Positions 7,322 to 45,712 of a stretch of 64,000 bases of DNA are shown here, piece by piece. Made by a program: the position numbers and the translations under genes. The notes below the pieces were generated by a model. The model made no database searches and was not told the DNA's origin. It saw only the letters and a program-made list of their open reading frames with translations. Source of the stretch: Alphaproteobacteria bacterium (GTDB lineage Bacteria > Pseudomonadota > Alphaproteobacteria > CAAHEQ01 > UBA3637); assembly GCA_015062245.1 (NCBI GenBank), contig SUVA01000002.1, forward strand, positions 25,234 through 89,233, in the 5' to 3' direction. Every line of letters starts with the position of its first letter. Within the stretch, counting starts at the first letter, position 1.

Positions 7322-9361
7322 TCAGAATAAACCGTTCCAATTATTGCTTGCCAAAATCGGGGCTACCACCAAAGAAACAATAATCATCAGTTTGATTAAA
7401 ATATTCAAAGCAGGACCCGATGTATCTTTAAACGGATCGCCAACGGTATCGCCCACAACGGTTGCTTTGTGTTGGCTGGTTCCTTTATGGCTGAAACGAC
7501 CGCATTCCACATACTTTTTGGCATTATCCCATGCTCCACCGGCATTGGACATCAATAATGCCAAGAACACACCGACAATTGTGGCGCCCAACAACATACC
7601 GCCCAAAGCTTCACGTCCCAACAAAAAGCCGGTAATCAACGGGGCGCTGATGGCCAACACACCCGGCATAATCATTTCACGCAAAGCAGCGCTGGTGGCA
7701 ATGGATACACAGCGGGCCGTGTTGGGTTGAACACCTTCTTCGCCCTGTAATAAACCTTTGATTGTGCGGAATTGATGGCGCACTTCTTTGACGATGGAAT
7801 AGGCGGCTCTGCCCACGGATTGCATAGTCATAGCGGCGGCCAACATCGGGATACATCCACCGATTAAAGTGCCGATAACAACCATTGGGTTGATCAGGTC
7901 AATACGTTCCAAATTGGCGGCCTGAATAAAGGCCACAAACAAAGCCAAAGCCGTTAAGGCGGCCGAACCGATGGCAAAACCTTTACCGATGGCGGCGGTT
8001 GTATTACCCAAAGAATCCAAATGATCCGTTATTTTACGGGTTTCAGGTCCCATATGGCTCATTTCGGCAATCCCACCGGCATTATCGGCAATCGGACCAT
8101 AGGCATCCACGGTCATGGTGACACCGACGGTGGCCAACATACCAACGGCCGAAATACCGATACCGTAAATGCCGGCACTCATATAGGCAATAAAGGTGGC
8201 CACACAAATACACAATACCGGTAAAACCGTTGAGGCCATACCGACGGCCAACCCCGAAATAATCACAGTGGCAGCCCCTGTACGGCTTTGGTGGGCAATT
8301 TTGCGCACGGGTCGTCCGGATGTATAATATTCGGCAAACAAACCGATTAAAGTACCGACAACCAAGCCTGAAATAACAGCGCCAAAAATCCCCCATGAAA
8401 TACCATTTAATCCAACGAACAGGGCGGATAATACCACAAACAAGACACCGGCCAACATCGTGGTTGCACGCAAAGCTGATGACGGTTTTAATTTTTTAAA
8501 CCAATGTAATGAACCCACACCGATTAAAGATGAAATCATACCAATAACGGCCAAGAATAAAGGCAGTTGTAATAATACCATTCTGTCAGCACCCAATGCG
8601 GATAAAGCTTTCTGTCCCATGGTGGCGGCAATGGCGGATGAAGCAATAATGGCCCCACAGTAAGATTCATAAATATCGGCCCCCATACCGGCAATATCAC
8701 CCACGTTATCGCCCACATTATCGGCAATCACACCGGGGTTGCGTGGATCGTCTTCGGGAATACCGGCTTCCACTTTTCCCACCAAATCAGATCCCACATC
8801 GGCGGCTTTGGTATAAATACCGCCACCCACACGGGCAAACAGGGCGATGGAACTGCATCCCATGGCAAAGCCGTTGATGTATTGCATACCTGATACTTCT
8901 TTGCCATAAATAAGGTACAAAATACCCAATCCTAATAATCCCAAGCCGGCCACGGATAACCCCATCACGGAACCCGAAAAATAGGATATTTTTAAAGCCC
9001 CTCGGATACCTTGTGCTTTGGCGGCCTGAGCCGTTCTGGAATTACCCTTTGTGGCGGCCATCATACCGAACAGGCCGGCAAAAATGGATGAAATTGCCCC
9101 ACAGATAAAGGCAAAAGCCGTCTGTAAATTTAATCCCCAGCCGATTAAAATAAAAATACCCAAAATGAAAAAGGCCAAAACCTTATATTCTTTCTTCAAA
9201 AAGGCCATAGCCCCGCTGTGGATTTGATGTTCAATGGCGGCCATTTTGGGGGTGCCATTGGGTTGGCGGGCAATATAAAAATAAATGGATATAGCCGTAA
9301 GCAATCCTAAAAGTCCCCAAACGGGTGCTGAAAAAACATAAGAAAAGACGGTATTTAACAT
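7322..9361 (-). CDS. hppA: K+/H+-translocating membrane pyrophosphatase
   Basis: Highly conserved H+-PPase motifs ([26 protein letters not shown]); multi-TM. Confidence 0.96.
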
Positions 9362-9492: not shown

Positions 9493-10770
9493 TTATTTTT
9501 GACACATTGCATAAAATGAATCTGGTGAACCTGCCGTACAATTCATGCTTCCGCTTGAAACGAAAAAGAGACAACTTCCTGTCAGCCATACAGAACCACC
9601 AGTTATTTCTTGTTGTAATTTTTTCAAAACATCAGAACTGGGCACAGATGTTATTCTGTTCATTCCTTGTGCAAGGCACCAATTTGTTACACTCCATGAT
9701 GACATTTGAGTGCCGGAAATAACATAATTTTTTCCACTAACAGACATTGGATAAATAATAAAATCATTGATTTTTTGACAATAGCCGGGACCTTGAGTAT
9801 TATTTATAAAATGTCCATTTTGAAAGGCACAAAACTCATCTTTTAAACAATCAGAATTTTTTAAACAAGATGCGTTTGTTTCGGGTTCAATTTCACATTT
9901 TTGATTGTGGTTGCATAAGGCCCAGAATCCGTCTGATTTCCCGGCACTGGGCGATACAATGCCATCATACATAAACCAGCCCCTGATTGAATCAACAACT
10001 TCTTTTAACCAAACTTGCGTTCCACCTAATTTATATGAAACTTCTGATGGCGTGGATCTTGTTGCAGATTTCATATTTTGTGCAGAGCACCAATTTTGGG
10101 CACTCCACCATGTCATTGGATATCTGGAATGAACCCAACAATTTTTTGAATCGTTATAAAATGTTTTTGGTTTAAATTCTTTAATATCTTGACACCATCC
10201 GATTCCCGAGTCAGCAAAAGAATTAGGCCGTTCAAAGGCGCAAAATTTTCCATTGGGACAATCGCTATTTTGTTTGCAAGTTACTTTACATCCGGCACCG
10301 TCAAAAATACGATTGTAATTTATTGTACAATCGGCACAGGTGCAATCTTCTGAATAAGTTTTACAACCATCTATTGGTAAACACTTTAAACATTCTCCAT
10401 TGCTGAAATAAGGTGTTTCGCTCGGGCAAGGTTGACAGGTGTTATTGATACATAAGGGGTTTTGATCGGTTGGACAGGCTCCTTCGCCTTTTTGATAATC
10501 TGTCAAACATTCCACACATTTTGAAGAAACACTATCCCATGATTGATTTTCGGGACATTTACAGGGTGTATAAGTGGGATGAGGATTTCCTGTATTGGCA
10601 AAAGCGGTACCTTCCGGACAACAATATCCGTCCCTTGTTTCACTGTCTTCCACACAATCGCACATCATTTCCAAACAATCACCTTTATATTCAAAACCTT
10701 TGGTTATCCATCCGGCATAAACCATGGATGATGTCAACATCAAAGCCGTTAGTAATGATAAATATTTCAT
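9493..10770 (-). CDS. Sec-secreted cysteine-rich protein with two C-type lectin-like domains
   Basis: Signal peptide (VYA|G), strong AGGAG RBS, dense Cys-rich N-terminus, two modules with WxxAxxWCxxxG...W(L/I)..C...F(Y/W)AxCxx CTLD-like pattern; family member. Confidence 0.7.
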   Translation of the reverse strand: MKYLSLLTALMLTSSMVYAGWITKGFEYKGDCLEMMCDCVEDSETRDGYCCPEGTAFANTGNPHPTYTPCKCPENQSWDSVSSKCVECLTDYQKGEGACPTDQNPLCINNTCQPCPSETPYFSNGECLKCLPIDGCKTYSEDCTCADCTINYNRIFDGAGCKVTCKQNSDCPNGKFCAFERPNSFADSGIGWCQDIKEFKPKTFYNDSKNCWVHSRYPMTWWSAQNWCSAQNMKSATRSTPSEVSYKLGGTQVWLKEVVDSIRGWFMYDGIVSPSAGKSDGFWALCNHNQKCEIEPETNASCLKNSDCLKDEFCAFQNGHFINNTQGPGYCQKINDFIIYPMSVSGKNYVISGTQMSSWSVTNWCLAQGMNRITSVPSSDVLKKLQQEITGGSVWLTGSCLFFVSSGSMNCTAGSPDSFYAMCQK

Positions 10771-10850
10771 ATAATTCTCCTGTGATATCTTGTTTTTTAT
10801 ATTAAAACAATTTAAACTTTTCTTGTCAAGAAATATTTTAAAAGGAGCAA

Positions 10851-13306: not shown

Positions 13307-14047
13307 TTAATCATCCTTGTTTGTTTTTTTGTTTGAAATGATTTGGTGAAACTGAATTAAAGCAATGGCGAACAGTAAGGGCAAAATTGCCTCACCAAAT
13401 TCTTCCAAAATTCTGAAAGCAAATCGGATGGGTTCATCCAATTGTTTGCCATAATGTTTGGCGTATTTTGACGGAAAGCGATCACAAAATTGTGTTGCAA
13501 TACCTAAGCCCCCAAAAGTCGCTATTGTCCAATAAAACGGTTCACGTTTGAAAAACCCGACAAACATTTTTTTAAAGTTTTTAATCAATAACCATAATAT
13601 TATTGATACCACTGATAAAATCAAAAATCCTGAAATAATTTTTTCATGCAAAGGATTGTTCGGGTTTGTGAAAAAACGGATTTTTATGGCGGTTGTATCG
13701 TGTTGGGTCAACCAATGTTGTAATCCCATTTCTCTTAACAGGGCAATCAACCACAAAAATACCAATGCCAAAAATGTTTTTTGCCTGGGGGTGTTTATGT
13801 AATCTTTTGCATATAAGATAACAGCAATAAAAGAAACAAAGTAACATAAGTAAGTTGTAACTTCGGAAACACCTGTTTTTTCAACGTCAAAAACACCCAA
13901 AAAACTGCGGAATAAATAGCAGGATGCAAAAAAGATAGTCAACAAAACGGCACTGAATATAGGTGAAAATGCATAATTTTGTATGCCGTATTTGTTTTTA
14001 TAAGTAATTGTTTTTGTTGCCATTTTTGTTCCTTTCATAAAAAGCAC
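13307..14047 (-). CDS. hypothetical integral membrane protein
   Basis: Multi-TM hydrophobic ORF, no recognizable family. Confidence 0.45.
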   Translation of the reverse strand: MLFMKGTKMATKTITYKNKYGIQNYAFSPIFSAVLLTIFFASCYLFRSFLGVFDVEKTGVSEVTTYLCYFVSFIAVILYAKDYINTPRQKTFLALVFLWLIALLREMGLQHWLTQHDTTAIKIRFFTNPNNPLHEKIISGFLILSVVSIILWLLIKNFKKMFVGFFKREPFYWTIATFGGLGIATQFCDRFPSKYAKHYGKQLDEPIRFAFRILEEFGEAILPLLFAIALIQFHQIISNKKTNKDD

Positions 14048-14115
14048 ATAACATTTTATGTTAAAAATTTTAAAAAGTCAATTTATCTTTATTTGTTTTG
14101 TTTTTGTAAAATGTC

Positions 14116-14144
14116 TTGCATTTAAAAAAAAAGTGGAGTATAAT
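14116..14144 (+). promoter_or_regulatory. sigma70-type promoter of tRNA-Pro (TTGCAT-17 bp-TATAAT)
   Basis: -35 TTGCAT 14116-14121, 17-nt spacer, -10 TATAAT 14139-14144, about 9 nt before the mature tRNA 5' end. Confidence 0.6.
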
Positions 14145-14153
14145 AGGCACATT

Positions 14154-14230
14154 CGGAGTGTAGCGCAGCCTGGTAGCGCACTTGTCTGGGGGGCAAGGTG
14201 TCGTGGGTTCAAATCCCGCCACTCCGACCA
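14154..14230 (+). tRNA. tRNA-Pro (anticodon GGG)
   Basis: Manual cloverleaf: acceptor CGGAGTG/CACTCCG, D-arm GCGC-AGCCTGGTA-GCGC, anticodon loop CTGGGGG, T-arm GTGGG-TTCAAAT-CCCGC, encoded CCA. Confidence 0.88.
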
Positions 14231-14404
14231 CTAAACACAAACGCCGAAAAATCGGCGTTTTTTCTTTTATTTTCAAGCACTTGCAAGAGTTCGAATGTTG
14301 AAAGCTAAAAAACAGCCATTTTCTTGAATTTACGAACTCTGGAACCAAAAAATCCTTATTTTTCAATACCTATCCATCGGGAAGCTAAAACTACTATCCC
14401 AGAA
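14221..14404 (+). repeat. cassette repeat R1 (contiguous with genuine tRNA-Pro 3' end)
   Basis: Shares ACTCCGACCACTAAACACAA, hairpin, GTTCGAAT, CAGCCATTTTC..TTTACGAACTCT..CCAAAAAATCC..CAATAC..GGGAGCTAAAA..TCCCAGAAA blocks with R2-R4. Confidence 0.8.
14241..14266 (+). terminator. rho-independent terminator after tRNA-Pro (also first element of repeat R1)
   Basis: acgccgaaaaatcggcgt hairpin followed by TTTTTTC. Confidence 0.6.
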
Positions 14405-14406
14405 AT

Positions 14407-15156
14407 TTACAACTTTTTATATATACTCATAACATGAGTAGAACAACCTATCATATCTGGACGTTCTGCTATCTGTAATTGTATTTGTTTGATTTTATTA
14501 AAGCTTGTTTTATCTAACTTATTTGTATATTCTTTTAATATTTCAAACAAGCCATCCAAGGATACATCGGATATGTGTTTTAATTTCGTCTTAGAAACCA
14601 GTTTGTGAAAGTCATTTACAAAATATGTTTCATAGATATCTTTTTCTACATGCTTTTTCTTAAAAGCGTTATAATTACCCTTTATCAATCCAAAACGGTA
14701 AATTATCGGTGTATTGGTTAGATAGTTAAATAACACTATTCCATTTTTCATACATATTCTATATGCTTCTTTAATTGCTTGAATTTTCTCATCTTCTTTA
14801 AATAAATGGGAGATAGGGCCATTTACAAAGACCACATCAAAGCAATCCGATTTTATAGATTTTAATTTTACAATATCACCACATAAAGTATCAAAATTAG
14901 AAGTTTTAATGCGTTTTGAAAGTCTATCCAAATTTTCTTGAAATAAATCTATCGCTGTAACGTGTTTTGCAAATTTAACTATCTCCGGCGAATAAGACCG
15001 AATTCCGGCTCCAATTTCTGCAACAGAGTTATGTTTCTTAATATACTTTTTTAGATAGTTAATTGTTACAAATCGTTCTAATAAAACATTGTTTTCTTCA
15101 ATTTTTTCACTTTTATTGCGTGTTTTATAAAACTTATATAGATTTTCTTTATCCAT
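14407..15156 (-). CDS. class I SAM-dependent methyltransferase (cassette 1)
   Basis: Motif I VAEIGAGIRSY, downstream D/E and VVFVNGPISH motif IV-like. Confidence 0.75.
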   Translation of the reverse strand: MDKENLYKFYKTRNKSEKIEENNVLLERFVTINYLKKYIKKHNSVAEIGAGIRSYSPEIVKFAKHVTAIDLFQENLDRLSKRIKTSNFDTLCGDIVKLKSIKSDCFDVVFVNGPISHLFKEDEKIQAIKEAYRICMKNGIVLFNYLTNTPIIYRFGLIKGNYNAFKKKHVEKDIYETYFVNDFHKLVSKTKLKHISDVSLDGLFEILKEYTNKLDKTSFNKIKQIQLQIAERPDMIGCSTHVMSIYKKL

Positions 15157-15211
15157 GATATACTCCCTTTAGAGCAGTTCTATCACAAATGGTATAAAAA
15201 AGCAATATCAA

Positions 15212-15416
15212 AGTTCGTGAATTGCGCATCCGTTCCGACCACTAAACACAAAGCATCAGAAATGGTGCTTTTTTATTTATTTTACAAGGTGTTGTGCGGG
15301 TTCGAATCTCCAACCGTCAAAATCAGCCATTTTCTTGAATTTACGAACTCTGGAACAAAAAAGTCCTTTAAAATCAATATAGGAAGTCTGGGAGCTAAAA
15401 TTACTGTTCCAGAAAA
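15212..15416 (+). repeat. cassette repeat R2
   Basis: Begins AGTTCGTGAATTGCGCATCCGTTCCGACCACTAAACACAA (degenerate tRNA T-arm/acceptor 3' half); same block order as R1. Confidence 0.8.
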
Positions 15417-15422
15417 AATGGC

Positions 15423-15451
15423 TTGACTTTCCTTATCTTTATATGTAAACT
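15423..15451 (+). promoter_or_regulatory. candidate sigma70 promoter for NUDIX/HAD cassette (TTGACT-17-TAAACT)
   Basis: Located directly after R2; AAGGAG RBS at 15472 and ATG at 15484 follow. Confidence 0.4.
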
Positions 15452-15483
15452 GGTTCTAGATTTTTCTAAAAAAGGAGTTTTAA

Positions 15484-15912
15484 ATGTCTGAAAATACTGT
15501 TTTTGTGGGATGTGGTGTTATTTTGCTTAACTCAAAAGGTCAATTTTTAATGATGAAACGCACCAGTAAACACGGGCAAGGGACTTGGGGCTTACCTGGT
15601 GGGCACATGGAATTTGGTGAAACATTTGAAACAGTGGCTATTCGTGAGGTTTCTGAAGAATTAGGTATTGAAATTCATAATCCGCACGTTTTAGGCGTTA
15701 CCAACAACTTCTTTCCAAATGAAAACAAGCATTCTGTTAGTATTATTTTGATTGCAAGGTTAGAAAATCAAGAACCAAAGAACATGGAACCACATAAATG
15801 TTCAGAATTGCGTTGGTGTGACGATTGGGAACATTTACCGGCTCCTGTTTTTATCCCTTATAATAAGTATATTTCCTTAAAACAAATAAGAGAATATTTT
15901 GAAAGTAAATAG
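15484..15912 (+). CDS. NUDIX hydrolase (cassette 2)
   Basis: NUDIX box GGHMEFGETFETVAIREVSEELGI. Confidence 0.85.
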   Translation: MSENTVFVGCGVILLNSKGQFLMMKRTSKHGQGTWGLPGGHMEFGETFETVAIREVSEELGIEIHNPHVLGVTNNFFPNENKHSVSIILIARLENQEPKNMEPHKCSELRWCDDWEHLPAPVFIPYNKYISLKQIREYFESK

Positions 15913-16615
15913 CCATATTCCGAATTTAAAGACCAAAACACATCTGATTTTTGATTTAGATGGGACCTTGATTGATTCTTTAAATATCTGGAATGTCATT
16001 GATCAGGCTGTTTTAAAAGGCCTAAACATTGTTGTCCCTTTGGATATTCTTCAACAAGAGCATACGATTTTTTTTAAAAAAGAAAATAGCTATATTCATT
16101 ATGCACAATTTTTAATTAAAAATCATCACTTAGAAATTACACCAGAAGAATTTCTGAAGATGCGTTGGCAAATAGCAGATAGCATTTTAACAGAACAAGT
16201 TGATTTTAAAAATGGTGTTGTAAAGATCCTTAAAAAATTAAAAGAACAATATGTACTTATATTAGCAACCAGCTCTACAAAACATATTCTATCGATTTAT
16301 GCACACCAAAATCAAAAAATGGCAAAAAGGTTATGTTTAGAAACTTTCTTTGATATGATATTGACACAGGAGGATATTCCTTTTGGAAAGGGAAAGCCTG
16401 AACCAGATATTTATTTGACTGTTCTGAAAAAATATTCTGTTAAACCTGAAAAATGCCTTATTTTTGAAGATTCATTGGAGGGTGTACAAGCCGCTTATCA
16501 CTCTGGCATAGATGTCATTCATGTAAATGATCCATTTATTCCTTTTGAGGATAAAAAATCAATACAGAAATATACCCCTTATCATTTGAAGAAATGGTCA
16601 GATTTTAAGATATAA
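15899..16615 (+). CDS. HAD-superfamily hydrolase (beta-phosphoglucomutase-like; cassette 2)
   Basis: Motif I LIFDLDGTLIDS; 14-nt overlap with NUDIX gene suggests an operon. Confidence 0.8.
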   Translation: MKVNSHIPNLKTKTHLIFDLDGTLIDSLNIWNVIDQAVLKGLNIVVPLDILQQEHTIFFKKENSYIHYAQFLIKNHHLEITPEEFLKMRWQIADSILTEQVDFKNGVVKILKKLKEQYVLILATSSTKHILSIYAHQNQKMAKRLCLETFFDMILTQEDIPFGKGKPEPDIYLTVLKKYSVKPEKCLIFEDSLEGVQAAYHSGIDVIHVNDPFIPFEDKKSIQKYTPYHLKKWSDFKI

Positions 16616-16625
16616 AATATTTTCT

Positions 16626-16832
16626 GAGCTCGTGAATTGCGCATTCATTCCGACCACTAAACACAAGTCGTCTCAAAAGGCGACTTTTTCTTTATTTTAC
16701 AAGCACTTATAAAAGTTCGAATGTTCAACTGTCAAAATTGGCTATTTTCAGCCATTTACGAACTCTTGAACCAAAAAATCCTTATTTTTCAATACTTGTC
16801 CTCTGAGAGTTCCAAACTACCATCCCAGAAAA
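16626..16832 (+). repeat. cassette repeat R3
   Basis: GAGCTCGTGAATTGCGCATTCATTCCGACCACTAAACACAA + hairpin gtcgtctcaaaaggcgac + conserved blocks. Confidence 0.8.
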
Positions 16833-16900
16833 TAGGTAATATTTTCAAATTTGTTTACAATATTATTGCTATTTTTGAAATAACATAGTATTCTAACCAT

Positions 16901-18562
16901 ATGTTAAGGCCTATAAAAGATTTTTTTATATTACAAATATTAAAAAAGAATAAAACACAGTTACAATTTCTTCTGCTCTTTTTGATGTTCTTCTTTTCTG
17001 TTTTGCAAGTGTATACTGAACCAGTACTTTTTAATGTTTGTTTTCTTTCTTTTTTTGCATTTGTTTGGTTTCTATTAGCGATAAAAAGACAGGTTATTTT
17101 TACTTTATATTTTTTTCTTGTTTTTTCCCCTGGATGCCTGCACTTCGTCTACCAACTTATATTTCGTCATCCAATAGATGATGCATCCATTGAGCAGGTA
17201 TTCATCTCTAATATTGCAATTAGTTTTGCTTTTTTAAAATCTCATCCTATATTGCTATGTTGTATTCCGTTAATTTTACTGCTTTTTGTACTTTTTTCGC
17301 ATATTTCGCATTTAATTGCTTCTCTCCAAATTTCATCCAGTAAGTACATACGTTTTTTAAGTACGTTGATGCTTTTGTGGCTAATAGTATTTTTATTGTT
17401 CTCTCATGGAAGTATATATCGTGTTGTCTTTGACGGATATCTTTCCTATAAAGCCGACTGTGCTTTTGTAGCGGATATAGTTGAAAAAAAACTCAACACT
17501 ACTTTTTCAAATGTAAAAATATCAGAGGATCAAACGGTTATTGTCGTGATAGGGGAATCCGAAACAAGAACGATGTTATCCTTGTATGGATATCAAAAAG
17601 ATACAACACCCCATTTATCTGACTTAAAAGATAAACTGATTGTTTTTTCTGATGTGTTCTCTCCACATTCCCATACAGCGACTGTTTTGGACAAAGCTTT
17701 ATCCCTAAAATCATTTAGTGACACTCCGAATAATTTTGGATCTGTTATTGATTTGTTTTCTCAAGCAGGGTTTGAAGTCTGGTGGCTTTCAACTCCACCT
17801 TTAAGAGACGTATGGTCTGGTTCAACAATGGCTATTTTATCAAATGCTGCACATCATAAATTTTTTCTAAATAAAGGTATATCATGGGATAGACATGACA
17901 TTGACTTATTACCAAAAATCAAAGAAGCAATTCTTCAACCCACTCCCAAAAAATTAATTTTTGTACATTTATTAGGGAGTCATGGAGCATATACGGATAG
18001 ATATCCAGAATCATTACGACGTCTTGATTTGACACCATATGAGAATACTATTTATTCAACAGATTACTTTATGAATGAAATAATCAATTTTTTAGAAAAA
18101 GAAAATATAAAAAACACGAAACTTCTTTATTTTTCGGATCATGGTGATGCACCACAGTGTCAATGTCATACAGAAGCGTTAGGATATCCAGAAATGTTTG
18201 AAGTCCCTTTTTATCTTTGGCTCAGTCCTGATATTAGAAATAAGTTTAAGTTAAATAAAGATATGCTTACAAAACCCTATAATACAGAACATTTGATTCA
18301 CTCGATTGCTGATTTGGCAAAAATTTCATCGGATGAAATTGATATACAAAAAAGCATTTTTAATCAAAATAGGAGAGGATTATATATTATGTTAGATGGT
18401 AAAAAATATGCTATTTCTTCGGATTTAATCTTTGAAGTTTCTCATCCTATAACAAGAGGAAAGGTAGTTGATTTTTCTGAGCATTACTTAAAAATCAAGT
18501 GGTATTCTTCTGGTGAGATAGAAACATGGGAAAATAAAAATTCAATTTGGCAAAAAATATAA
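16901..18562 (+). CDS. sulfatase-family membrane protein, phosphoethanolamine/phosphoglycerol transferase (EptA/OpgB)-like (cassette 3)
   Basis: Five N-terminal TM helices followed by alkaline-phosphatase/sulfatase-fold domain (VIGESETR.., DHGD motifs). Confidence 0.7.
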   Translation: MLRPIKDFFILQILKKNKTQLQFLLLFLMFFFSVLQVYTEPVLFNVCFLSFFAFVWFLLAIKRQVIFTLYFFLVFSPGCLHFVYQLIFRHPIDDASIEQVFISNIAISFAFLKSHPILLCCIPLILLLFVLFSHISHLIASLQISSSKYIRFLSTLMLLWLIVFLLFSHGSIYRVVFDGYLSYKADCAFVADIVEKKLNTTFSNVKISEDQTVIVVIGESETRTMLSLYGYQKDTTPHLSDLKDKLIVFSDVFSPHSHTATVLDKALSLKSFSDTPNNFGSVIDLFSQAGFEVWWLSTPPLRDVWSGSTMAILSNAAHHKFFLNKGISWDRHDIDLLPKIKEAILQPTPKKLIFVHLLGSHGAYTDRYPESLRRLDLTPYENTIYSTDYFMNEIINFLEKENIKNTKLLYFSDHGDAPQCQCHTEALGYPEMFEVPFYLWLSPDIRNKFKLNKDMLTKPYNTEHLIHSIADLAKISSDEIDIQKSIFNQNRRGLYIMLDGKKYAISSDLIFEVSHPITRGKVVDFSEHYLKIKWYSSGEIETWENKNSIWQKI

Positions 18563-18575
18563 ATTTATTTGCTCT

Positions 18576-18783
18576 GAGTTCGTAAATTGCGCATTCACTC
18601 CGACCACTAAACACAAAGCATCAGAAATGGTGCTTTTTTCTTTATCTTACAAGGCCTTGTTCGGGTTCGTATGTTCAACTGTCAAAATCAGCCATTTTCA
18701 ACCATTTACGAACTCTTGAGTCAAAAAATCCTTTGTTTTCAATACCTGTCCCTTGGGAGCCTAAAACATAAATCCCAGAAAAT
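18576..18783 (+). repeat. cassette repeat R4
   Basis: GAGTTCGTAAATTGCGCATTCACTCCGACCACTAAACACAA; hairpin identical to R2 (agcatcagaaatggtgct). Confidence 0.8.
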
Positions 18784-18822
18784 AGACCTAAAAATTTAAT
18801 TTATTTTTCCTTACAAAATATG

Positions 18823-18851
18823 TTGACATTAGCGTGATTTTTTGATTAAAT
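18823..18851 (+). promoter_or_regulatory. candidate sigma70 promoter (TTGACA-17-TTAAAT) for small cassette ORF
   Basis: Consensus -35 and acceptable -10 with 17-nt spacing directly after R4. Confidence 0.4.
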
Positions 18852-18884
18852 GAAATCATTATCAATTTTAGTGAAAGGAAAAAA

Positions 18885-19100
18885 ATGTTTAATAATCGAC
18901 CTCGAGTAAGGGTTGCTTTTTCAAAAAAGTCTATTCAAAAGATAAAAGAAGCAATAGAAAATCTTAACTCTTTGCAACCAGTTTTACCCCTTCCTAAAAA
19001 AGAGTCAACCAGAGAAGAATGGCTAGAAAGACAACATAAAATTTTATCTTATCAACCTCCACGTCCTGTATCTTTTAGGGGTAGACAAAGGGGTGAATAA
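18885..19100 (+). CDS. hypothetical small protein (cassette 4)
   Basis: 71-aa ORF with GGA-rich RBS region, bounded by R4 and partial R5; no homology recognized. Confidence 0.3.
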   Translation: MFNNRPRVRVAFSKKSIQKIKEAIENLNSLQPVLPLPKKESTREEWLERQHKILSYQPPRPVSFRGRQRGE

Positions 19101-19123
19101 TTTTCATGTAAAACGGTTGGACT

Positions 19124-19160
19124 AAGCTCGTAAATTGTACATCCATTCCGACTATTCTTT
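19124..19160 (+). repeat. truncated cassette repeat R5 (tRNA-3'-end-like part only)
   Basis: AAGCTCGTAAATTGTACATCCATTCCGACTATTC aligns to the first 35 nt of R2-R4. Confidence 0.6.
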
Positions 19161-19214
19161 CTAAGAATAATTAAACTTACAGATAAATTCTCTTGAAAAA
19201 AAGAAAGGAATAAA

Positions 19215-19781
19215 ATGAAAATAGAATGGAAAATTGATAAGTTATTAGCACCTTTACCAGCTGCGCTAGTTTCGTGTGGAACGATGAAAAAAGCGAACGT
19301 TTTAACTGTTTCGTGGACAGGTTTTTTAAACTCTGAACCGTTGATGACCTATGTTGCTATTCGACCTTCTCGCTATTCGTATCGTTTAATTAAACGTGGC
19401 AAAAGTTTTGTTATTAATATTCCTAATAAAAAATTATTACACTGCGTAGATGTATGCGGTCTTAAAAGTGGTAAAGATACAGATAAATTTGCTGAATGTG
19501 GCATAACAGCCGTTGAAAGTAAGATGGTTTCTGCGCCGTCTATTTTAGAGTGTCCTATTTCTATAGAGTGTGAAGTTTGTGATATTTTAAAAAATCCATC
19601 ACATGATGCTTTTATTGCAAAAGTGAAAACTATTACTATAGACGATCAATATATGGAGGGTCGCAAATTTAATTTTGTTAAGGCCGGTTTGATAATGTCG
19701 GCACATCGACAATACTTTGAAGTGGGTGATTTTTTAGCTGATACTTTCTATACAGCACAAGAAAATTCTAAGAGTAAATAA
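19215..19781 (+). CDS. flavin reductase-like (NADH:FMN oxidoreductase, HpaC/RutF family) protein (cassette 5)
   Basis: Flavin_Reduct domain pattern (LVSCGT...NVLTVSW...P...VAIRPSRYS). Confidence 0.75.
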   Translation: MKIEWKIDKLLAPLPAALVSCGTMKKANVLTVSWTGFLNSEPLMTYVAIRPSRYSYRLIKRGKSFVINIPNKKLLHCVDVCGLKSGKDTDKFAECGITAVESKMVSAPSILECPISIECEVCDILKNPSHDAFIAKVKTITIDDQYMEGRKFNFVKAGLIMSAHRQYFEVGDFLADTFYTAQENSKSK

Positions 19782-23736: not shown

Positions 23737-25941
23737 CTAGTTCATCCAACTGCAATCGTTTACCTTGTTTACAATGGACATATCTGTGCTTCCCGCAGAA
23801 CCGCAATAATACAGGTTTTGAATTGTACCAGTGTAAAAACCTTGACAATATGCTTTTTTACTTCCTTGCAGATAGGCATTGGTTATGTTACCCGGTGTGG
23901 AAGCTATTATACAATTACATTCTCCACAACTGGCAAGACCATACTCTCCCCCATAAGCAATCAAAGTGCCAATTGTTGCTTCCCCATACACATTGTATAA
24001 TCCACCATTTTTAATCTCTATTTTAGAAGCCTGTAAAGAACCATCGTTTTGCAAGTTTCCTTTTTCTATTTCTATATTTGTTGCTTCCAATGTTTTGACA
24101 GTACTGTATATGCTGTTTGAATTGAGTATACATGTTTCAGGGGTGAAAACTCCACCTGCTGCTGTTATTGGCCCTGAAAAAATTGAACATGTTATATTTT
24201 TTGCAGAGAGTTTTCCTGAATTGTCTAATCCTTTGGCAGCTTTTACATTTATTTTATTTGTTGCAGTTATTGTTCCTGTGTTTCTTATTGCATAAAGATC
24301 TTTGGATAGATTTCCTGTTTCAAAACTTTCTTCTTCCCCCACTACAGTGATATTGTCGGAATTGATTGTTCCGTAATTTGTAATTCCAACGTTAATCATT
24401 TGAGCACTTGCATCTATATCGGAAATATTTAAAGTTCCTCTGTTAATTATTGAAGCATTCGTGGTAAGAGAATCCGAATAAATTGTTCCGTAGTTTTGAA
24501 CAGAATAAGCATTGTCGTTATTACCATCACTTCTTATAAGAATACTATTGACTTTTAAGGTTTTTCCTTCTGACACTGATACCTGCAGAACAGATTGATC
24601 GGAAAATGATAATTTGCATTCGGAAATGTCTAAATCTTTTTCGACGTTTAATCTGCCGTTATATTTTATGGTTTCATTATCTTTCATTAAAAATGTTCCG
24701 TTGGTCCCCGAACTTTCTTTGTCGAGAACATAACCAGCATCAAGCATTTTCAAACAACATTGATTTTCACCGCATCCATCGTCTTCAACGCAATTATTTC
24801 CATCCAGTTTATAACCTTTTTCACATTTTATCGGCAACCCGCTTTCGTTGCACTCCGTCACATTTGCACCACAAGGCGTGCAGGTATTTCCATTTAAATA
24901 ATAGCCAGTTTGACAGGCTGTTGGTTTGCCCGTTGAATCACAGCTGAGCACACCTGTACCACAGGATGTGCAAGAATTTCCATTTTTATAATAGCCGGCT
25001 TGGCAGGTAAAGCCATTTGAAGTACAACTAGCCACACCTGTTGTCGGACATTGAACACAAGAATTACCGCTTAAATAATAACCACTTTTACAAGAGGTTG
25101 GTTTGCCCGTTGAATCACAGCTGGCCACACCTGTGCCACAGGATGTGCAAGAATTTCCATTTTTATAATAGCCGGCTTGGCAGGTAAAGCCATTTGAAGT
25201 ACAACTAGCCACACCTGTTGTCGGACATTGAACACAGGAATTTCCATTTAAATAATACCCCTCTTCACATTCTGTCGGATTGCCATTTTCATCACAAGTA
25301 ACGACACCTGTGCCACAGGAAGTGCAAGTATTACCGTTTTTATAATATCCTGATTCGCATTCAAATCCATCGTCTTTGCAATCCATACTGTTCTCTGGGC
25401 ATTCAATACAATTACCATTTGACAAAAAATACCCGTCAACACAACCTATCGGATTAAAATCACTGTCGCAAACGGCGTTCGCCGGACATTCCCGAGGTTG
25501 ACTATCTTTATCCGGTGTTGTTGATGAATCGGCCTCAGGAAACTTTAAAAAATAAAAGGTAACATTGCTGGTTGATTCACATTCGTCTTTTGTATATCCG
25601 GCACCTATATCAAATTCAGTCAAAACCCCACACAAAGAAGAACTATTCGTTTTTACATCAATCCAAAACCAATCTTTGTTTTTATCACCAACCCCATTTT
25701 CAATCGTAAATATCGTATCGTAGGGACCTTTTTCCGTTCGTGGCATCCGTTCACCGGCATGCGCATTCATAGAAAGTAAGCGAGAATTTTTAATAGCTGT
25801 CAATCTTTGGGCCAATGTATGGGTTTGGCTTTCCAATCTGGCCTCTTGCCACAGACGAATACCAGCCACCGTAATCAATGCAATAATAACCAATACGGAT
25901 AAAACTTCTAATATTGAACGGCCAAATTGTGCTTTTTTCAT
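23737..25941 (-). CDS. type IV pilin-like N-terminus / Cys-rich GYY-CxxC repeat / beta-helix-like large surface protein
   Basis: GGAG RBS; leader MKKAQFG|RSILEVLSVLVIIALITVAG with G(-1) and E(+5); 59-aa tandem Cys-rich repeats (CxxC..GYYxNGNxC); C-terminal NxGT(I/L)-type repeats; paralog of 30944..33169. Confidence 0.75.
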   Translation of the reverse strand: MKKAQFGRSILEVLSVLVIIALITVAGIRLWQEARLESQTHTLAQRLTAIKNSRLLSMNAHAGERMPRTEKGPYDTIFTIENGVGDKNKDWFWIDVKTNSSSLCGVLTEFDIGAGYTKDECESTSNVTFYFLKFPEADSSTTPDKDSQPRECPANAVCDSDFNPIGCVDGYFLSNGNCIECPENSMDCKDDGFECESGYYKNGNTCTSCGTGVVTCDENGNPTECEEGYYLNGNSCVQCPTTGVASCTSNGFTCQAGYYKNGNSCTSCGTGVASCDSTGKPTSCKSGYYLSGNSCVQCPTTGVASCTSNGFTCQAGYYKNGNSCTSCGTGVLSCDSTGKPTACQTGYYLNGNTCTPCGANVTECNESGLPIKCEKGYKLDGNNCVEDDGCGENQCCLKMLDAGYVLDKESSGTNGTFLMKDNETIKYNGRLNVEKDLDISECKLSFSDQSVLQVSVSEGKTLKVNSILIRSDGNNDNAYSVQNYGTIYSDSLTTNASIINRGTLNISDIDASAQMINVGITNYGTINSDNITVVGEEESFETGNLSKDLYAIRNTGTITATNKINVKAAKGLDNSGKLSAKNITCSIFSGPITAAGGVFTPETCILNSNSIYSTVKTLEATNIEIEKGNLQNDGSLQASKIEIKNGGLYNVYGEATIGTLIAYGGEYGLASCGECNCIIASTPGNITNAYLQGSKKAYCQGFYTGTIQNLYYCGSAGSTDMSIVNKVNDCSWMN
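24958..25312. repeat. near-identical 177-bp tandem repeat (2 copies; diverged copies flank to ~24840-25340) inside pilin-like gene
   Basis: acaggatgtgcaagaatttccatttttataatagccggcttggcaggtaaagcc... recurs at 24961 and 25138 (period 177 bp = 59 aa). Confidence 0.85.
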
Positions 25942-44395: not shown

Positions 44396-45712
44396 ATGCG
44401 TTTAAACCACGATAAAGGGCAAAATAAATGGACCTTGTACACACACACACACACACAAGTAATTCCTGAAAAGACAAAAGCCACCGAAGGTGGCCGTTCA
44501 ATGGTTGAAATGTTGGGAACTTTGGCGATTATAGGGGTGCTATCCATAGGTTCTATTTGGGCCCTTTCGGGTGTGATGAATCGCTTTCGTGCCAATGATT
44601 TATTGGAAGAAGCCTCGGCCCGTGCCATGCGTGTATCCGAACAAATTAAAAAAGGGCGTAAAACATTAAGCCTTGGTAAATTTTTACATAACGAAACGAT
44701 GGGCGGTACTTTTTCCAAACAGGTTTTTACTTCAGGGCTTTATCAACAATTTGCAATTCAGGTATCCGATGTAAATAAAGCCGTTTGTGAAAGGGTTTTA
44801 AATTCTATTACCGAAAATACCCCTTTGCGCCGATTGTCATTGGTGAATTCCCCAACGGTTGCCATCACCGAATGTAATGATGAAAATACGTTTTTGATGG
44901 TTTATAACAGCTCTATCAAAGGGGAAGAACAGGATAAAAAATATTGCGAATCTGATAAAGATTGTGATACGGTTTGTGGAGAATGTAATGAAAATCATAT
45001 ATGCCGTAATGAATGTGAAATTCCAAGACCTGATTTAAATTCTGATTTTGGTCAAGAATGTGGCGAAAATGAATGTGTTGTTTATGATGAAGAAAGTCAG
45101 AGTTGTAAATATAGCTGTGAACGTGTGGAATATTTGGAAGGAACTTACAATTCAGGAAATTCATATATTGATACAGGAATAAAATATGATTGGAGTAAAG
45201 ATTTTTACATGAATATAACAGCTTCTGTTCCCAGTGCAAATGCACGTTTTTGTTTGATTGGGGATTATGCAGCGCAAGGAATAAATTTGGAAAAATCAAA
45301 TAATAAATTGCGTGTTTACGGGCATGGAGGAACTCCAAACAATAACTCTGTAAATGATTTACCAAAAGATAATCAAAAATTCAATGTTCAATGGAGAAGA
45401 AGTATTTCTAATTCAGATGTGGATGTTATTTTAACAACAGATGAATACACAGAAACAATATCAAGAATAGGTATAACTTTTCAAAATGTTTCAAGTTCCA
45501 GCTTGAAAATTTTTACTGATAATCGTTTATCAGGAACATTTATTACACCTGGTGAAAGAATATATTCTTTATATATAAAATTAGGGGAAAATATTCGTGA
45601 TTTCATTCCTGTTATTTCGCCTGATGGTGAACCATGTATGTTTGACAAAGTCAGTAAAAAGCTATTCCGTAATTCAGGAACAGGAACTTTTAAAACAAAT
45701 TTAGATGAATAA
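44396..45712 (+). CDS. type IV pilin-like N-terminus / Cys-rich / C-terminal beta-sandwich-like domain protein
   Basis: AGGAG RBS 10 nt before ATG 44396; leader ...KATEGG|RSMVEMLGTLAIIGVLSIGSIWALSGV (G-1, E+5); Cys-rich CDTVCGECNENHICRNECE segment; ATG 44333 rejected because it lies inside rnhB. Confidence 0.7.
   Translation: MRLNHDKGQNKWTLYTHTHTQVIPEKTKATEGGRSMVEMLGTLAIIGVLSIGSIWALSGVMNRFRANDLLEEASARAMRVSEQIKKGRKTLSLGKFLHNETMGGTFSKQVFTSGLYQQFAIQVSDVNKAVCERVLNSITENTPLRRLSLVNSPTVAITECNDENTFLMVYNSSIKGEEQDKKYCESDKDCDTVCGECNENHICRNECEIPRPDLNSDFGQECGENECVVYDEESQSCKYSCERVEYLEGTYNSGNSYIDTGIKYDWSKDFYMNITASVPSANARFCLIGDYAAQGINLEKSNNKLRVYGHGGTPNNNSVNDLPKDNQKFNVQWRRSISNSDVDVILTTDEYTETISRIGITFQNVSSSSLKIFTDNRLSGTFITPGERIYSLYIKLGENIRDFIPVISPDGEPCMFDKVSKKLFRNSGTGTFKTNLDE
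44439..44456 (+). repeat. (AC)9 dinucleotide tract inside the leader-peptide coding region (YTHTHTQ)
   Basis: acacacacacacacacac read directly; in frame between start codon and prepilin cleavage motif. Confidence 0.9.

What the first reader, a model, noticed from the sequence alone, without database searches (positions are those of the whole stretch)
9493..10770. Sec-secreted tandem C-type-lectin-like, Cys-rich protein; five-member eukaryote-like cysteine-rich family
9493..10770 lacks the pilin leader and has a classical signal peptide. It shares the Cys-rich style and carries two CTLD-like modules (MTWWSAQNWCSAQNM...GFWALC and MSSWSVTNWCLAQGM...SFYAMCQK). With 23737, 30944, 44396 and 58150 it forms a dispersed five-gene family. 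The family combines three N-terminal export modes (prepilin, degenerate prepilin, Sec) with swapped C-terminal modules (CTLD, beta-helix, beta-sandwich). The domain shuffling suggests an adhesin or effector repertoire aimed at a eukaryotic host.
Basis: partly seen in the sequence, partly recalled or inferred. Interest (0 to 1): 0.55.

Follow-up and report, generated by a model that had tools for sequence, protein, structure and literature searches.

The report
Secreted bacterial protein with two lectin-fold tips
A gut alphaproteobacterium encodes a secreted, disulfide-rich protein that ends in two compact C-type-lectin-fold domains; the same unannotated binding module also sits on pilin-like carriers in this lineage, so this is a new variant of a familiar adhesin design, not a new kind of system.

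Summary
The ORF is real: minus strand, 9493..10770, 425 aa, 36 Cys. All 36 Cys are kept in a 93.6%-identical orthologue, and dN/dS is 0.10. It has a Sec-type signal peptide and no pilin leader.

It ends in two tandem copies (35% identical, E 3e-19) of a ~130-aa cassette: a small disulfide knot followed by a compact C-type-lectin-like domain (CTLD).
- Pfam and NCBIfam do not see the cassette.
- AlphaFold2 models it at pLDDT 95, and every top Foldseek hit is a CTLD.
- A 57-sequence profile hits almost only CTLD chains in the PDB (best E 2e-4).
- It has no Ca2+/sugar motif and no long loop.

The "five-gene family" is a mosaic, not one homologous family.
- A shares only the cassette with E.
- B, D and E share a pilin-like N-terminal domain.
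- B and C are paralogues.
- Elsewhere, the C-terminal modules of B and D occur in giant pilin-led proteins that also carry the cassette.

The cassette defines at least 502 protein clusters. All sources that carry a name are gut or rumen Alphaproteobacteria MAGs.

Most likely function: a constant N-terminal carrier presenting C-terminal binding tips, that is, an adhesin-type repertoire. A eukaryotic target is not supported by any test.

The parts
9493..10770 (-). Whole gene A: 425-aa secreted, Cys-rich protein (stop codon 9493-9495)
   Evidence: ORF call. The identical protein is called on 8 metagenome contigs in the same synteny. The orthologue in L001 is 93.6% identical, with dN/dS 0.10 and all 36 Cys conserved.
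10801..10829 (-). Promoter-like site: TTGACA (10829-10824), 17-nt spacer, TTTAAT (10806-10801)
   Evidence: Read directly from the sequence. The consensus scanner does not list it, because it requires A at position 2 of the -10 hexamer. This is a match to consensus only, not evidence of function.
10776..10781 (-). Shine-Dalgarno AGGAGA, 5 nt before the ATG
   Evidence: Read directly from the sequence.
10714..10770 (-). Sec-type signal peptide, aa 1-19 (MKYLSLLTALMLTSSMVYA)
   Evidence: n/h/c layout with V-Y-A before Gly20, no lipobox, no pilin motif. The same signal peptide is conserved in about 24 homologue clusters. No dedicated signal-peptide predictor was available.
10516..10713 (-). Family-specific N-terminal head, aa 20-85 (GWITKG.EYKGDCLEMMCDCVED...TYTPCKCPENQSWD), 9 Cys in aa 20-90
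   Evidence: It is shared at 40-80% identity by about 24 protein clusters whose C-termini differ. W2, C13, E15, M16, C18, C20, C31, C32 and C51 of the mature protein are invariant in 17 sequences. There is no Pfam hit. The AF2 model is poor (pLDDT 54).
10291..10515 (-). Cys-rich spacer, aa 86-160: CxxC-type repeats (CVECLTD...C...CQPCP; 10 Cys in aa 91-160)
   Evidence: The repeat recurs 2-4 times in homologues such as P0009 and P0014. The only database signal is a sub-threshold NCBIfam Myxo_Cys_RPT hit (E 0.006), and it lies at aa 164-177, in the knot of cassette 1, not in this spacer. AF2 confidence is below 50.
9901..10290 (-). Cassette 1, aa 161-290: disulfide knot (about aa 161-205; C..N.DC..G.FCAF...G.G.C) plus compact CTLD (about aa 206-290; MTWWSAQNWC...VWL...FWALC)
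   Evidence: Independent HMM E 6e-23. AF2 pLDDT 95.4, pTM 0.89, with strand and helix order beta1-alpha1-alpha2-beta2-beta3-beta4-beta5. Foldseek top-50 hits are all CTLDs in the PDB and in BFVD. The knot gives only sub-threshold Dickkopf_N and CarbpepA_inh hits.
9496..9900 (-). Cassette 2, aa 291-425: knot plus compact CTLD (MSSWSVTNWC...VWL...FYAMCQK), forming the C-terminal tip
   Evidence: 35% identical to cassette 1 (E 3e-19). Independent HMM E 1.5e-20. It was not modelled separately.
58153..58572 (-). The only other copy of the cassette in the window: C-terminus of gene E (aa 240-379), behind a pilin-like N-terminal domain
   Evidence: Independent HMM E 3e-24; alignment.
59170..59289 (-). 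Context: pilin-like leader and hydrophobic helix of gene E (…QKG|RSMVEMLGVLAIIGVLSVGG…)
   Evidence: The motif is read. Pfam N_methyl and TIGR02532 hits are below threshold. At least 7,887 related clusters exist, and JGI names some of them PulG or PilE.
44396..44566 (+). Context: pilin-like leader and helix of gene D (…EGG|RSMVEMLGTLAIIGVLSIG…)
   Evidence: D~E N-terminal domains match at E 1e-19.
25849..25941 (-). Context: pilin-like leader and helix of gene B (MKKAQFG|RSILEVLSVLVIIALITVAG)
   Evidence: B~E N-terminal domains match at E 1e-14.
45098..45709 (+). Context: C-terminal module of D. Elsewhere it follows CTLD cassettes in a single protein.
   Evidence: phmmer hits P0032 aa 1444-1637 (E 1.7e-22) and P0073. 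P0032 carries five cassettes.
23740..24756 (-). Context: C-terminal module of B (paralogous in C). Elsewhere it is repeated in giant cassette-bearing proteins.
   Evidence: phmmer hits P0085 (E 6.6e-20) and P0059 (E 2.8e-16). Each of these has four cassettes.

Best explanation
Gene A encodes an extracytoplasmic, disulfide-bonded ligand-binding protein built as a carrier plus tips.

Proposed mechanism:
1. The Sec pathway exports the protein and signal peptidase I cuts after Ala19.
2. The 36 cysteines are oxidised in the periplasm.
3. The constant N-terminal head (aa 20-85), shared by at least 8 paralogues in the sister genome, is the common part that handles export, retention or presentation.
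4. A Cys-rich spacer holds out two tandem knot-plus-compact-CTLD cassettes, which are the binding surface.

The CTLDs lack the Ca2+/sugar motif and the long loop region. Binding is therefore expected to be Ca2+-independent and directed at a protein or a non-canonical glycan.

The protein is one member of a lineage-wide kit in gut and rumen Alphaproteobacteria. In that kit the same cassette, nearly always at the extreme C-terminus, is mounted on three alternative N-terminal carriers, most often a pilin-like one. That is an adhesin or recognition repertoire.

Shown: the gene is real and under constraint, the domain architecture, the CTLD fold, module sharing, and repertoire size. Inferred: disulfide formation, surface exposure, the carrier role of the head, and binding as the function.
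For: Real, constrained gene:
- dN/dS 0.10, and all 36 Cys conserved.
- The identical protein occurs on 8 contigs in the same synteny.
- There is a good Shine-Dalgarno sequence and a promoter-like site.

Export:
- The N-terminus is Sec-like.
- SecA and an outer-membrane beta-barrel protein are encoded in the window, so the cell is diderm.
- The even Cys count (36) and the 8.5% Cys content fit an oxidised extracytoplasmic protein.

CTLD:
- AF2 pLDDT 95.4.
- All top-50 Foldseek hits are CTLDs, with TM 0.46-0.61 and probability 0.99-1.0, in the PDB. These include the adhesive-fibre tip Bd2740 of Bdellovibrio. The top hits in BFVD are CTLDs as well.
- The 57-sequence profile hits 39 PDB sequences, about 36 of them CTLDs, with best E 2e-4.
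- The Cys in helix alpha1 and the Cys in strand beta5 are invariant, and the Trp of strand beta2 is nearly invariant.

Carrier-plus-tip logic:
- The head is conserved at 40-80% identity in front of unrelated C-termini.
- In 133 of 153 proteins the last cassette ends within 5 aa of the C-terminus.
- 67 of the 150 best representatives are pilin-led.
- Modules are recombined between proteins.
- Paralogues are gained and lost between sister species, and one locus holds three in tandem.

Precedent: functional modules grafted on pilins for tip display (PMC8179133), and a Ca-free C-type lectin fold as the tip of Bdellovibrio recognition fibres (PMC10769870).
Against: - No binding, localisation or expression data exist.
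- The head has no recognisable fold (pLDDT 54) and no known anchoring motif. How a Sec substrate would cross or attach to the outer membrane is therefore unknown.
- No type IV pilus, type II secretion or Dsb genes lie in the window.
- Foldseek E-values are only about 1e-2, and Pfam Lectin_C is not reached.
- The CTLD fold also serves non-adhesive roles.
- The orthologue pair shows no sign of the diversifying selection often seen in recognition proteins.
Confidence: 0.55

Rival explanations
1. A is an exoprotein or tip-docked adhesin of a type IV filament. After Sec export, the conserved mature N-terminus (GWITKG.DYKGDC...) docks on a minor-pilin complex of the same machine that assembles the pilin-like proteins B, D and E. 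The protein is then carried through the secretin and either released or displayed. This is how TcpF and CofJ use their N-terminal export signals on type IVb pili.
For: - A-head and pilin-led proteins coexist in one genome and draw on one module pool.
- The first 19 mature residues are among the most conserved of the head, yet AF2 models them at pLDDT below 50. That resembles the disordered export signals of TcpF and CofJ (PMC10120004, PMC6048534, PMC9565799).
- The lineage has an extraordinary number of pilin-like proteins (at least 7,887 clusters).
Against: - A is not in a pilus operon; its neighbours are housekeeping genes.
- No filament machinery has been seen so far.
- The N-terminal segment contains two invariant Cys, so it is probably disulfide-locked rather than a free peptide.
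- A low pLDDT from a 17-sequence alignment is weak evidence of disorder.
Confidence: 0.15
2. A stays in the cell envelope, in the periplasm or on the inner face of the outer membrane. There it has a structural or peptidoglycan/glycan-binding role and is not a surface adhesin.
For: - A plain Sec signal takes a diderm protein only as far as the periplasm.
- No outer-membrane targeting signal is recognisable.
- dN/dS is as low as for neighbouring housekeeping genes.
Against: - The same cassette sits at the far C-terminus of pilin-led proteins up to 6,368 aa with 20 copies. That makes sense for outward display, not for a periplasmic role.
- Presence/absence variation and tandem paralogues are typical of surface repertoires.
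Confidence: 0.12
3. A is a classical Ca2+-dependent carbohydrate-binding C-type lectin, acquired from an animal host and aimed at host glycans. This is the strong form of the first reader's 'eukaryote-like' idea.
For: The best structural and profile matches are animal CTLDs such as CLEC2D, langerin, CD69 and CD94. The organism comes from animal gut or rumen samples.
Against: - There is no EPN, QPD or WND motif.
- The long loop region that builds the Ca2+ site is absent; the beta2-beta3-beta4 strands are joined by loops of 2-4 residues.
- Identity to animal CTLDs is only 8-19%, and Pfam Lectin_C is not reached.
- The fused N-terminal knot and the 502-cluster bacterial radiation argue for an old bacterial family.
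- The PDB is dominated by animal CTLDs, which biases the hit list.
Confidence: 0.06
4. A is the receptor-binding part of a secreted toxin or effector, as the CTLD-fold domains in pertussis toxin S2/S3 are (from my own knowledge, not checked here).
For: It is a secreted, Cys-rich protein with a CTLD binding module. Its N-termini are constant and its C-termini variable, which recalls polymorphic toxins.
Against: - No catalytic or toxin domain is present in A, nor in the homologues scanned against Pfam.
- There is no partner gene; the flanks are housekeeping genes and syntenic across samples.
- No immunity-like small ORF is present.
Confidence: 0.04

Closest known systems
C-type lectin-like domain (CTLD) superfamily, Ca-independent forms such as the NK-receptor type (CD69, CLEC2D/LLT1, CD94) and compact forms such as the Link module
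   Same: - Same secondary-structure order, beta1-alpha1-alpha2-beta2-beta3-beta4-beta5.
- Conserved Cys in alpha1 and in beta5.
- Trp-containing beta2 (VWL, equivalent to WIGL).
- Foldseek TM 0.46-0.61, and profile E down to 2e-4.
   Different: - It does not reach the Pfam Lectin_C or Xlink thresholds.
- The core is only about 85 aa, with no long loop region and no Ca2+/sugar motif.
- It is always preceded by a 4-Cys knot (C..N.DC..G.FCAF..G.G.C) not described for CTLDs in the libraries searched.
Bdellovibrio bacteriovorus MAT fibre Bd2740 (PDB 8oks; PMC10769870)
   Same: It is a bacterial, Ca-free C-type-lectin-fold domain at the extreme C-terminal tip of one member of a multi-gene repertoire. 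That repertoire has constant N-terminal parts and varied tips and is used for target recognition. Bd2740 is also a direct Foldseek hit (rank 17, TM 0.52/0.61).
   Different: - No sequence similarity was found outside the fold.
- MAT proteins are trimeric fibres with their own N-terminal architecture, whereas A has a Cys-rich head and spacer.
- Oligomeric state was not tested here.
- The host organism is not known to be predatory.
Modular type IV pilins (Streptococcus sanguinis PilB with a vWA module, PilC with a lectin module; PMC8179133, PMC9934059)
   Same: The design is a carrier module plus a grafted binding module. The cassette of A is carried by pilin-like N-termini in E and in 67 of the 150 best representatives.
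   Different: - A itself has a Sec signal and no pilin module.
- The pilin-like leaders here have Arg, not Phe or Met, at +1, and they miss the Pfam and TIGRFAM cut-offs.
- Some pilin-led relatives are far larger than the most extreme modular pilin cited in PMC8179133 (860 residues): 6,368 aa with 20 cassettes.
Intimin/invasin C-terminal CTLD adhesin tips
   Same: A bacterial surface protein whose outermost C-terminal domain is a compact, Ca-independent CTLD that binds a protein receptor.
   Different: - Intimin and invasin are anchored by an N-terminal outer-membrane beta-barrel with Ig-like spacers. A has none of these.
- They did not appear among the top-50 Foldseek hits.
Type IVb pilus exoproteins TcpF and CofJ (PMC10120004, PMC6048534, PMC9565799)
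   Same: Sec-exported, non-pilin colonisation proteins whose mature N-terminus is the recognition element for a pilus machine. This is a possible model for the role of the conserved A head.
   Different: - TcpF and CofJ are single genes inside the pilus operon, whereas A is one of many dispersed paralogues among housekeeping genes.
- There is no sequence similarity.
- The A head is Cys-rich rather than a short free peptide.

Membership tests
CTLD superfamily (fold level) | Alpha/beta fold with order beta1-alpha1-alpha2-beta2-beta3-beta4-beta5, superposable on solved CTLDs | tested here: met
   The AF2 model of aa 160-290 has pLDDT 95.4. All top-50 Foldseek PDB hits are CTLDs, with TM 0.46-0.61 and probability 0.99-1.0 but E only about 1e-2. 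The named hits among the BFVD top 50 are C-type-lectin-like viral proteins.
CTLD superfamily (fold level) | Conserved disulfide between helix alpha1 and strand beta5 (C1-C4) | tested here: met
   The Cys in WWSAQNWC (alpha1) and in ALC (beta5) are invariant in 57 sequences. They are C228/C286 and C365/C423 in A.
CTLD superfamily (fold level) | Hydrophobic core motif of beta2 (WIGL-type Trp) | tested here: met
   VWL / YWL; this Trp (W95 of the module) is at least 90% conserved. HMMER aligns it with the WIGL-equivalent region of CLEC2D and langerin.
CTLD superfamily (fold level) | Detectable sequence-profile relationship to known CTLDs | tested here: met
   The 57-sequence profile searched against PDB sequences gives 39 hits, about 36 of them CTLDs, with best E 2e-4. 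An earlier 5-sequence profile found none.
Pfam Lectin_C (PF00059) / Xlink (PF00193) | Score at or above the family gathering threshold | tested here: not met
   A, E and the other three proteins have no such hit. Of 57 cassette sequences, only 2 give weak Lectin_C hits (best E 0.009) and 2 give weak Xlink hits.
Classical Ca2+-dependent carbohydrate-recognition domain (C-type lectin proper) | Long loop region carrying the EPN/QPD and WND Ca2+/sugar-binding motifs | tested here: not met
   A has no EPN, QPD, WND, EPS or EPD. In the model, beta2-beta3-beta4 are joined by loops of 2-4 residues, so there is no long loop.
Sec/SPase I-exported protein | Tripartite signal peptide (basic n-region, hydrophobic h-region, small residues at -3 and -1) and no lipobox | tested here: met
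   MKYLSLLTALMLTSSMVYA|G: K2, h-region hydropathy 1.58, V-Y-A before the cut, no Cys before residue 32. This was judged by inspection only; no SignalP-type predictor was available.
Type IV pilin / pseudopilin (incl. modular pilins) | Class III signal peptide: Gly at -1, Glu at +5, followed by a ~20-aa hydrophobic alpha1-N helix | tested here: not met
   Not met for A: it has no G|xxxxE motif and no helix-grade hydrophobic stretch. B, D and E do have the motif (G|RSMVEML...), but N_methyl and TIGR02532 score below their cut-offs.
Bdellovibrio MAT (mosaic adhesive trimer) fibres | Trimeric fibre with a conserved N-terminal region and intertwined beta-rich shaft | not tested
   Only the tip fold matches (8oks). 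No multimer modelling was possible. No sequence hit to MAT proteins appeared in any search.
T4bP exoproteins (TcpF/CofJ type) | Encoded in the pilus operon, with a disordered N-terminal export signal that binds the minor pilin | tested here: not met
   The operon criterion is not met: the flanks are H+-PPase, metallophosphoesterase and an SNF symporter. N-terminal disorder is inconclusive (pLDDT below 50 for mature residues 1-19 in a weak model). Binding cannot be tested with these tools.

The most novel reading that the evidence does not exclude
This gut and rumen alphaproteobacterial lineage may run one type IV filament machine as a general display and secretion platform for an exchangeable library of disulfide-rich binding modules.
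- Some modules would be fused directly to unusual Arg(+1) pilins, in proteins up to 6,368 aa with 20 CTLD cassettes.
- Others, like A, would be Sec-exported and docked to the filament through a conserved N-terminal head that acts as a family-wide export or docking signal.

That would generalise the one-pilus-one-exoprotein mechanism of TcpF and CofJ to a multi-gene repertoire. It would also extend the known size range of pilin subunits by nearly an order of magnitude.
Probability: 0.15. Interest if true: 0.7.

Novelty: new variant of a known kind. Interest (0 to 1): 0.42.

Why it matters
The cassette defines at least 502 clusters at 50% identity (98 of them at E <= 1e-10). It is invisible to Pfam, NCBIfam and PHROGs, so proteins such as this one are filed as 'hypothetical'.

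Recognising it as a knot-plus-compact-CTLD binding module gives a first functional handle on a poorly known group of animal-gut Alphaproteobacteria, known here only from MAGs and metagenome contigs, and shows three things:
- These bacteria invest heavily in a combinatorial surface or secreted recognition repertoire.
- The CTLD fold has radiated widely in these bacteria as a C-terminal tip domain, paralleling the Bdellovibrio MAT fibres and the modular pilins.
- Pilin-like carriers in this lineage can bear very long module arrays.

It also raises a concrete physiological question: how does an organism from an anoxic habitat oxidise 18 cysteine pairs per protein?

The design principle is known, so the finding is of moderate rather than high surprise.

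Tried and rejected
- Pfam, NCBIfam and PHROGs scans of all five proteins gave no above-threshold hit for A. The only signals were sub-threshold: Dickkopf_N, Myxo_Cys_RPT, VSP and N_methyl.
- The first 5-sequence cassette profile searched against PDB sequences found nothing relevant. Only the 57-sequence profile worked.
- The search for homologous proteins with the 5-sequence profile returned only 13 hits because of its word filter. The exhaustive search was needed.
- A full-length alignment for modelling the whole of A failed: MAFFT placed the cassette fragments on the head region, so alignment A4 was discarded.
- The AF2 model of the N-terminal head and spacer (aa 20-165, 17 sequences) was poor (pLDDT 53.9). 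No fold search was run on it, and the head remains unassigned.
- D's C-terminal module searched against PDB sequences gave no hit.
- Pfam on A-head homologues gave only a sub-threshold VWA_2 hit for P0007 (E 0.0055), although NCBI names P0023 'VWA domain-containing'.
- A search for a conserved partner gene next to family members in 14 loci found only the paralogues themselves and ordinary synteny.
- A literature search for this lineage together with pilins found nothing relevant.
- Rejected: not a gene. Purifying selection, conserved Cys and recurrence across samples argue against it.
- Rejected: lipoprotein. There is no lipobox.
- Rejected: DGR variable protein. This was only considered from general knowledge; no reverse-transcriptase hit appeared among the 31 larger window ORFs scanned.
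- Rejected: prophage or mobile island. The flanks are housekeeping genes and syntenic in a sister species.
Full report
**Observation.**
The window has an ATG-to-stop ORF at 9493..10770 on the minus strand. It encodes 425 aa with 36 Cys (8.5%). Five nucleotides upstream of the ATG lies AGGAGA, and further upstream TTGACA-17 nt-TTTAAT.

The N-terminus MKYLSLLTALMLTSSMVYA|GW looks like a Sec/SPase I signal. It has one Lys, a moderately hydrophobic core (Kyte-Doolittle 1.58) and V-Y-A before the cut. It has no lipobox and no G|xxxxE pilin motif. Genes B, D and E carry G|RS(M/I)(V/L)E(M/V)L followed by helix-grade hydrophobic stretches (2.3-2.9). No signal-peptide predictor was available, so this rests on inspection.

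They belong to two tandem repeats, aa 161-290 and 291-425, that are 35% identical (E 3e-19).

**The gene is real and constrained.**
- The identical protein is called on 8 contigs from at least five metagenome samples, in the same SNF-symporter / metallophosphoesterase / A / H+-PPase context.
- A 98% variant forms a 15-member cluster.
- A sister-species MAG (JAZKXR01, about 89% nucleotide identity, syntenic) has an orthologue at 93.6% amino-acid identity. All 36 Cys are kept. dN/dS is 0.10, within the range of the neighbours (0.03-0.19).

**Anatomy.**
1. Signal peptide, aa 1-19.
2. A head, aa 20-85 (GWITKG.EYKGDCLEMMCDCVED...TYTPCKCPENQSWD). It is conserved at 40-80% identity in about 24 protein clusters that then diverge completely.
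3. A CxxC-type Cys-rich spacer, aa 86-160, whose unit is repeated 2-4 times in some homologues.
4. Two cassettes. Each is a 4-Cys knot (C..N.DC..G.FCAF...G.G.C) followed by MxWWSAxNWCxAQ...VWL...ALC.

The head and spacer have no database match. AlphaFold2 modelled them poorly (pLDDT 53.9).

**What the cassette is.**
Pfam, NCBIfam and PHROGs do not recognise it. The knot gives only sub-threshold Dickkopf_N and carboxypeptidase-inhibitor hits. Only 2 of 57 family members give weak Lectin_C or Xlink hits.

An exhaustive HMMER search of 1.84 billion representatives with a 5-sequence profile found 502 clusters at E <= 1e-3 and 98 at E <= 1e-10. With a 57-sequence alignment, AlphaFold2 modelled cassette 1 at pLDDT 95.4 and pTM 0.89. 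The element order is beta1, alpha1 (WWSAQNWCSA), alpha2, beta2 (VWL), beta3, beta4, beta5 (ALC).

Every one of the top 50 Foldseek hits in the PDB is a C-type-lectin-like domain: CD94/NKG2A, CD69, LOX-1, Ly49, langerin, CLEC-2 and the Bdellovibrio Bd2740 tip. TM is 0.46-0.61 and probability 0.99-1.0, but E is only about 1e-2. The viral library likewise returned C-type-lectin-like proteins.

Independently of any model, the 57-sequence profile searched against PDB sequences gave 39 hits, about 36 of them CTLDs, with best E 2e-4. The Cys of alpha1 and of beta5, which form the canonical CTLD disulfide, are invariant, and the beta2 Trp is nearly so.

The domain is compact. Beta2-beta3-beta4 are joined by loops of 2-4 residues, so there is no long loop region, and A has no EPN, QPD or WND motif. 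It is not a Pfam Lectin_C member and not a classical Ca2+-dependent sugar-binding lectin.

**The 'five-gene family'.**
- Within the window the cassette occurs only in A (twice) and at the C-terminus of E. This holds with an HMM built solely from 104 sequences of other genomes (6e-23, 1.5e-20 and 3e-24; nothing else among 455 ORFs).
- B and C are paralogues (1e-76).
- D~E (1e-19) and B~E (1e-14) share a pilin-like N-terminal domain of about 150-200 aa.
- A versus B, C or D shows only weak Cys-driven similarity.

So the five are not one family by descent. They are nevertheless linked through a common module pool. D's C-terminal module recurs at the end of P0032 behind five cassettes (E 1.7e-22). 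B's C-terminal module recurs, repeated, in P0085 and P0059, each of which carries four cassettes.

**Scale and carriers.**
- Among the 150 best cassette-bearing representatives, 67 start with the pilin-like leader, 21 with a signal peptide followed by FAFGGG...GVDAIGVH, and 13 with another signal-peptide-like N-terminus. The remaining 49 are unclear or truncated.
- In 133 of 153 proteins the last cassette ends within 5 aa of the C-terminus.
- Extreme cases are P0027 (6,368 aa, 20 cassettes) and P0028 (4,335 aa, 13 cassettes, from a yak-rumen Alphaproteobacteria MAG).
- The pilin-like domain of E has at least 7,887 related clusters (capped). JGI names some of them PulG or PilE.
- The sister genome has at least 8 A-head paralogues, three of them in tandem. 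One (293 aa) is inserted next to the A locus and is absent from the window.
- All sources that carry a name are MAGs labelled Alphaproteobacteria. The one whose record title names a habitat is from yak rumen.

**Context.**
All five genes stand alone among housekeeping genes: MutL, TsaD, H+-PPase, GyrA, IF-2, NusA, SpoT, SecA, PPDK and others. An outer-membrane beta-barrel protein indicates a diderm cell. No pilus, type II secretion or Dsb gene is in the window. A-D have GC3 of 0.24-0.30, against 0.39-0.48 for four core genes; E has 0.43.

**Mechanism.**
- Shown: a constrained gene; a Sec-like leader; an even and fully conserved Cys set; two CTLD-fold tips; a constant head in front of variable C-termini; cassette reuse on pilin-like carriers; and paralogue turnover.
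- Inferred: Sec export, periplasmic oxidation, outward presentation with the head as common carrier, and Ca-independent binding by the CTLDs to a protein or an unusual glycan.
- I put this adhesin- or recognition-type reading at about 0.55.
- Precedents are modular pilins (PMC8179133) and the Ca-free C-type-lectin tip of Bdellovibrio MAT fibre Bd2740 (PMC10769870).
- The main gap is how a Sec substrate with no known anchor would reach or stay on the surface.

**Rivals.**
- (a) A filament-dependent exoprotein or tip-docked adhesin, with the head acting like the N-terminal export signals of TcpF and CofJ (PMC10120004, PMC6048534, PMC9565799). This is attractive because A-head and pilin-led proteins share modules and a genome, but A is not in a pilus operon and no machinery was seen (0.15).
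- (b) An envelope-resident protein (0.12).
- (c) A classical host-derived Ca-dependent lectin. This is contradicted by the missing motifs and loop and by the deep bacterial radiation (0.06).
- (d) A toxin binding subunit, with no catalytic partner found (0.04).

**Comparison and novelty.**
It works like known carrier-plus-tip adhesins. At fold level it belongs to the CTLD superfamily. It fails membership of Pfam Lectin_C and of the Ca-dependent lectins, and A fails the pilin definition. The knot-plus-compact-CTLD cassette is an unannotated domain family. Its deployment on three carriers, including very large Arg(+1) pilin-like proteins, is a new variant of a known kind. Nothing tested here bears on whether the target is a eukaryotic host.

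**Dead ends.**
These are listed under 'tried and rejected'. The main ones are the unassigned head, the failed full-length alignment, and the untested beta-helix and beta-sandwich labels for B/C and D.

Noticed in passing
window 25849-25941 (-), 44396-44566 (+), 59170-59289 (-): The pilin-like leaders of B, D and E read G|RS(M/I)(V/L)E(M/V)L. They have Arg rather than the usual Phe or Met at +1 after the cleavage Gly, and they keep Glu at +5. Leader lengths differ widely (about 7, 33 and 16 aa). Pfam N_methyl and TIGR02532 score below threshold, so standard annotation misses them.
   Followed up: partly
proteins P0027 (6368 aa) and P0028 (4335 aa; = L008 36-11711+, yak-rumen MAG): These are giant proteins that begin with the pilin-like leader and carry 20 and 13 knot-CTLD cassettes. 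They are far larger than the most extreme modular pilin cited in PMC8179133 (860 residues).
   Followed up: partly
representative proteins e.g. P0062, P0091, P0095, P0133 (not in window): A third recurrent N-terminal carrier for the cassette has a signal peptide ending ...SAFAFGGGG, followed by a conserved ...Y(K/R)GGVDAIGVH... segment. It occurs in 21 of the 150 best representatives. Its function is unknown, and it is absent from the window.
   Followed up: no
L001 2923-3804 (+); L006 1912-6047 (+): The sister species has an extra 293-aa A-head paralogue between the SNF-symporter and metallophosphoesterase genes. In the window those two genes are only 2 nt apart (11945/11948). Another locus in the sister species has three A-head paralogues in tandem. 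Together these show gene gain and loss within the family.
   Followed up: partly
window genes A-D vs 7322-9361, 20544-23315, 26046-28511, 49776-52415: Third-codon-position GC of A, B, C and D is 0.24-0.30, against 0.39-0.48 for H+-PPase, GyrA, IF-2 and SecA; E has 0.43. This could reflect low expression or a different history. It was not analysed further.
   Followed up: no
window 23737-25941 (-) and 30944-33169 (+): B carries about eight tandem Cys-rich repeats (C..C...V..C...G.P..C..GYY..GN.C) with a sub-threshold hit to the Giardia VSP family (E 1e-3). C is its paralogue, but its leader is degenerate, with no G|RS..E motif. It may no longer be processed as a pilin.
   Followed up: no
window 13307-14047 (-), 41530-42453 (+), 45713-46414 (-), 48439-49680 (+): Four sizeable ORFs (246, 307, 233 and 413 aa) have no Pfam hit at E <= 1e-3.
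   Followed up: no
window 14001-20000 and 54001-56000: These stretches are markedly AT-rich (GC 0.30-0.32, against a window mean of 0.39). They overlap a methyltransferase/HAD/sulfatase-family group and the 3' part of a 953-aa fused GT2-GT2-pyruvyl-transferase gene (53282-56143).
   Followed up: no
window 9493-10770 and the whole repertoire: These are secreted proteins with up to 8.5% Cys (18 presumptive disulfides in A), from an organism found in anoxic gut or rumen samples. No Dsb-type oxidase gene is in the window, so how these proteins are oxidised is unexplained.
   Followed up: no
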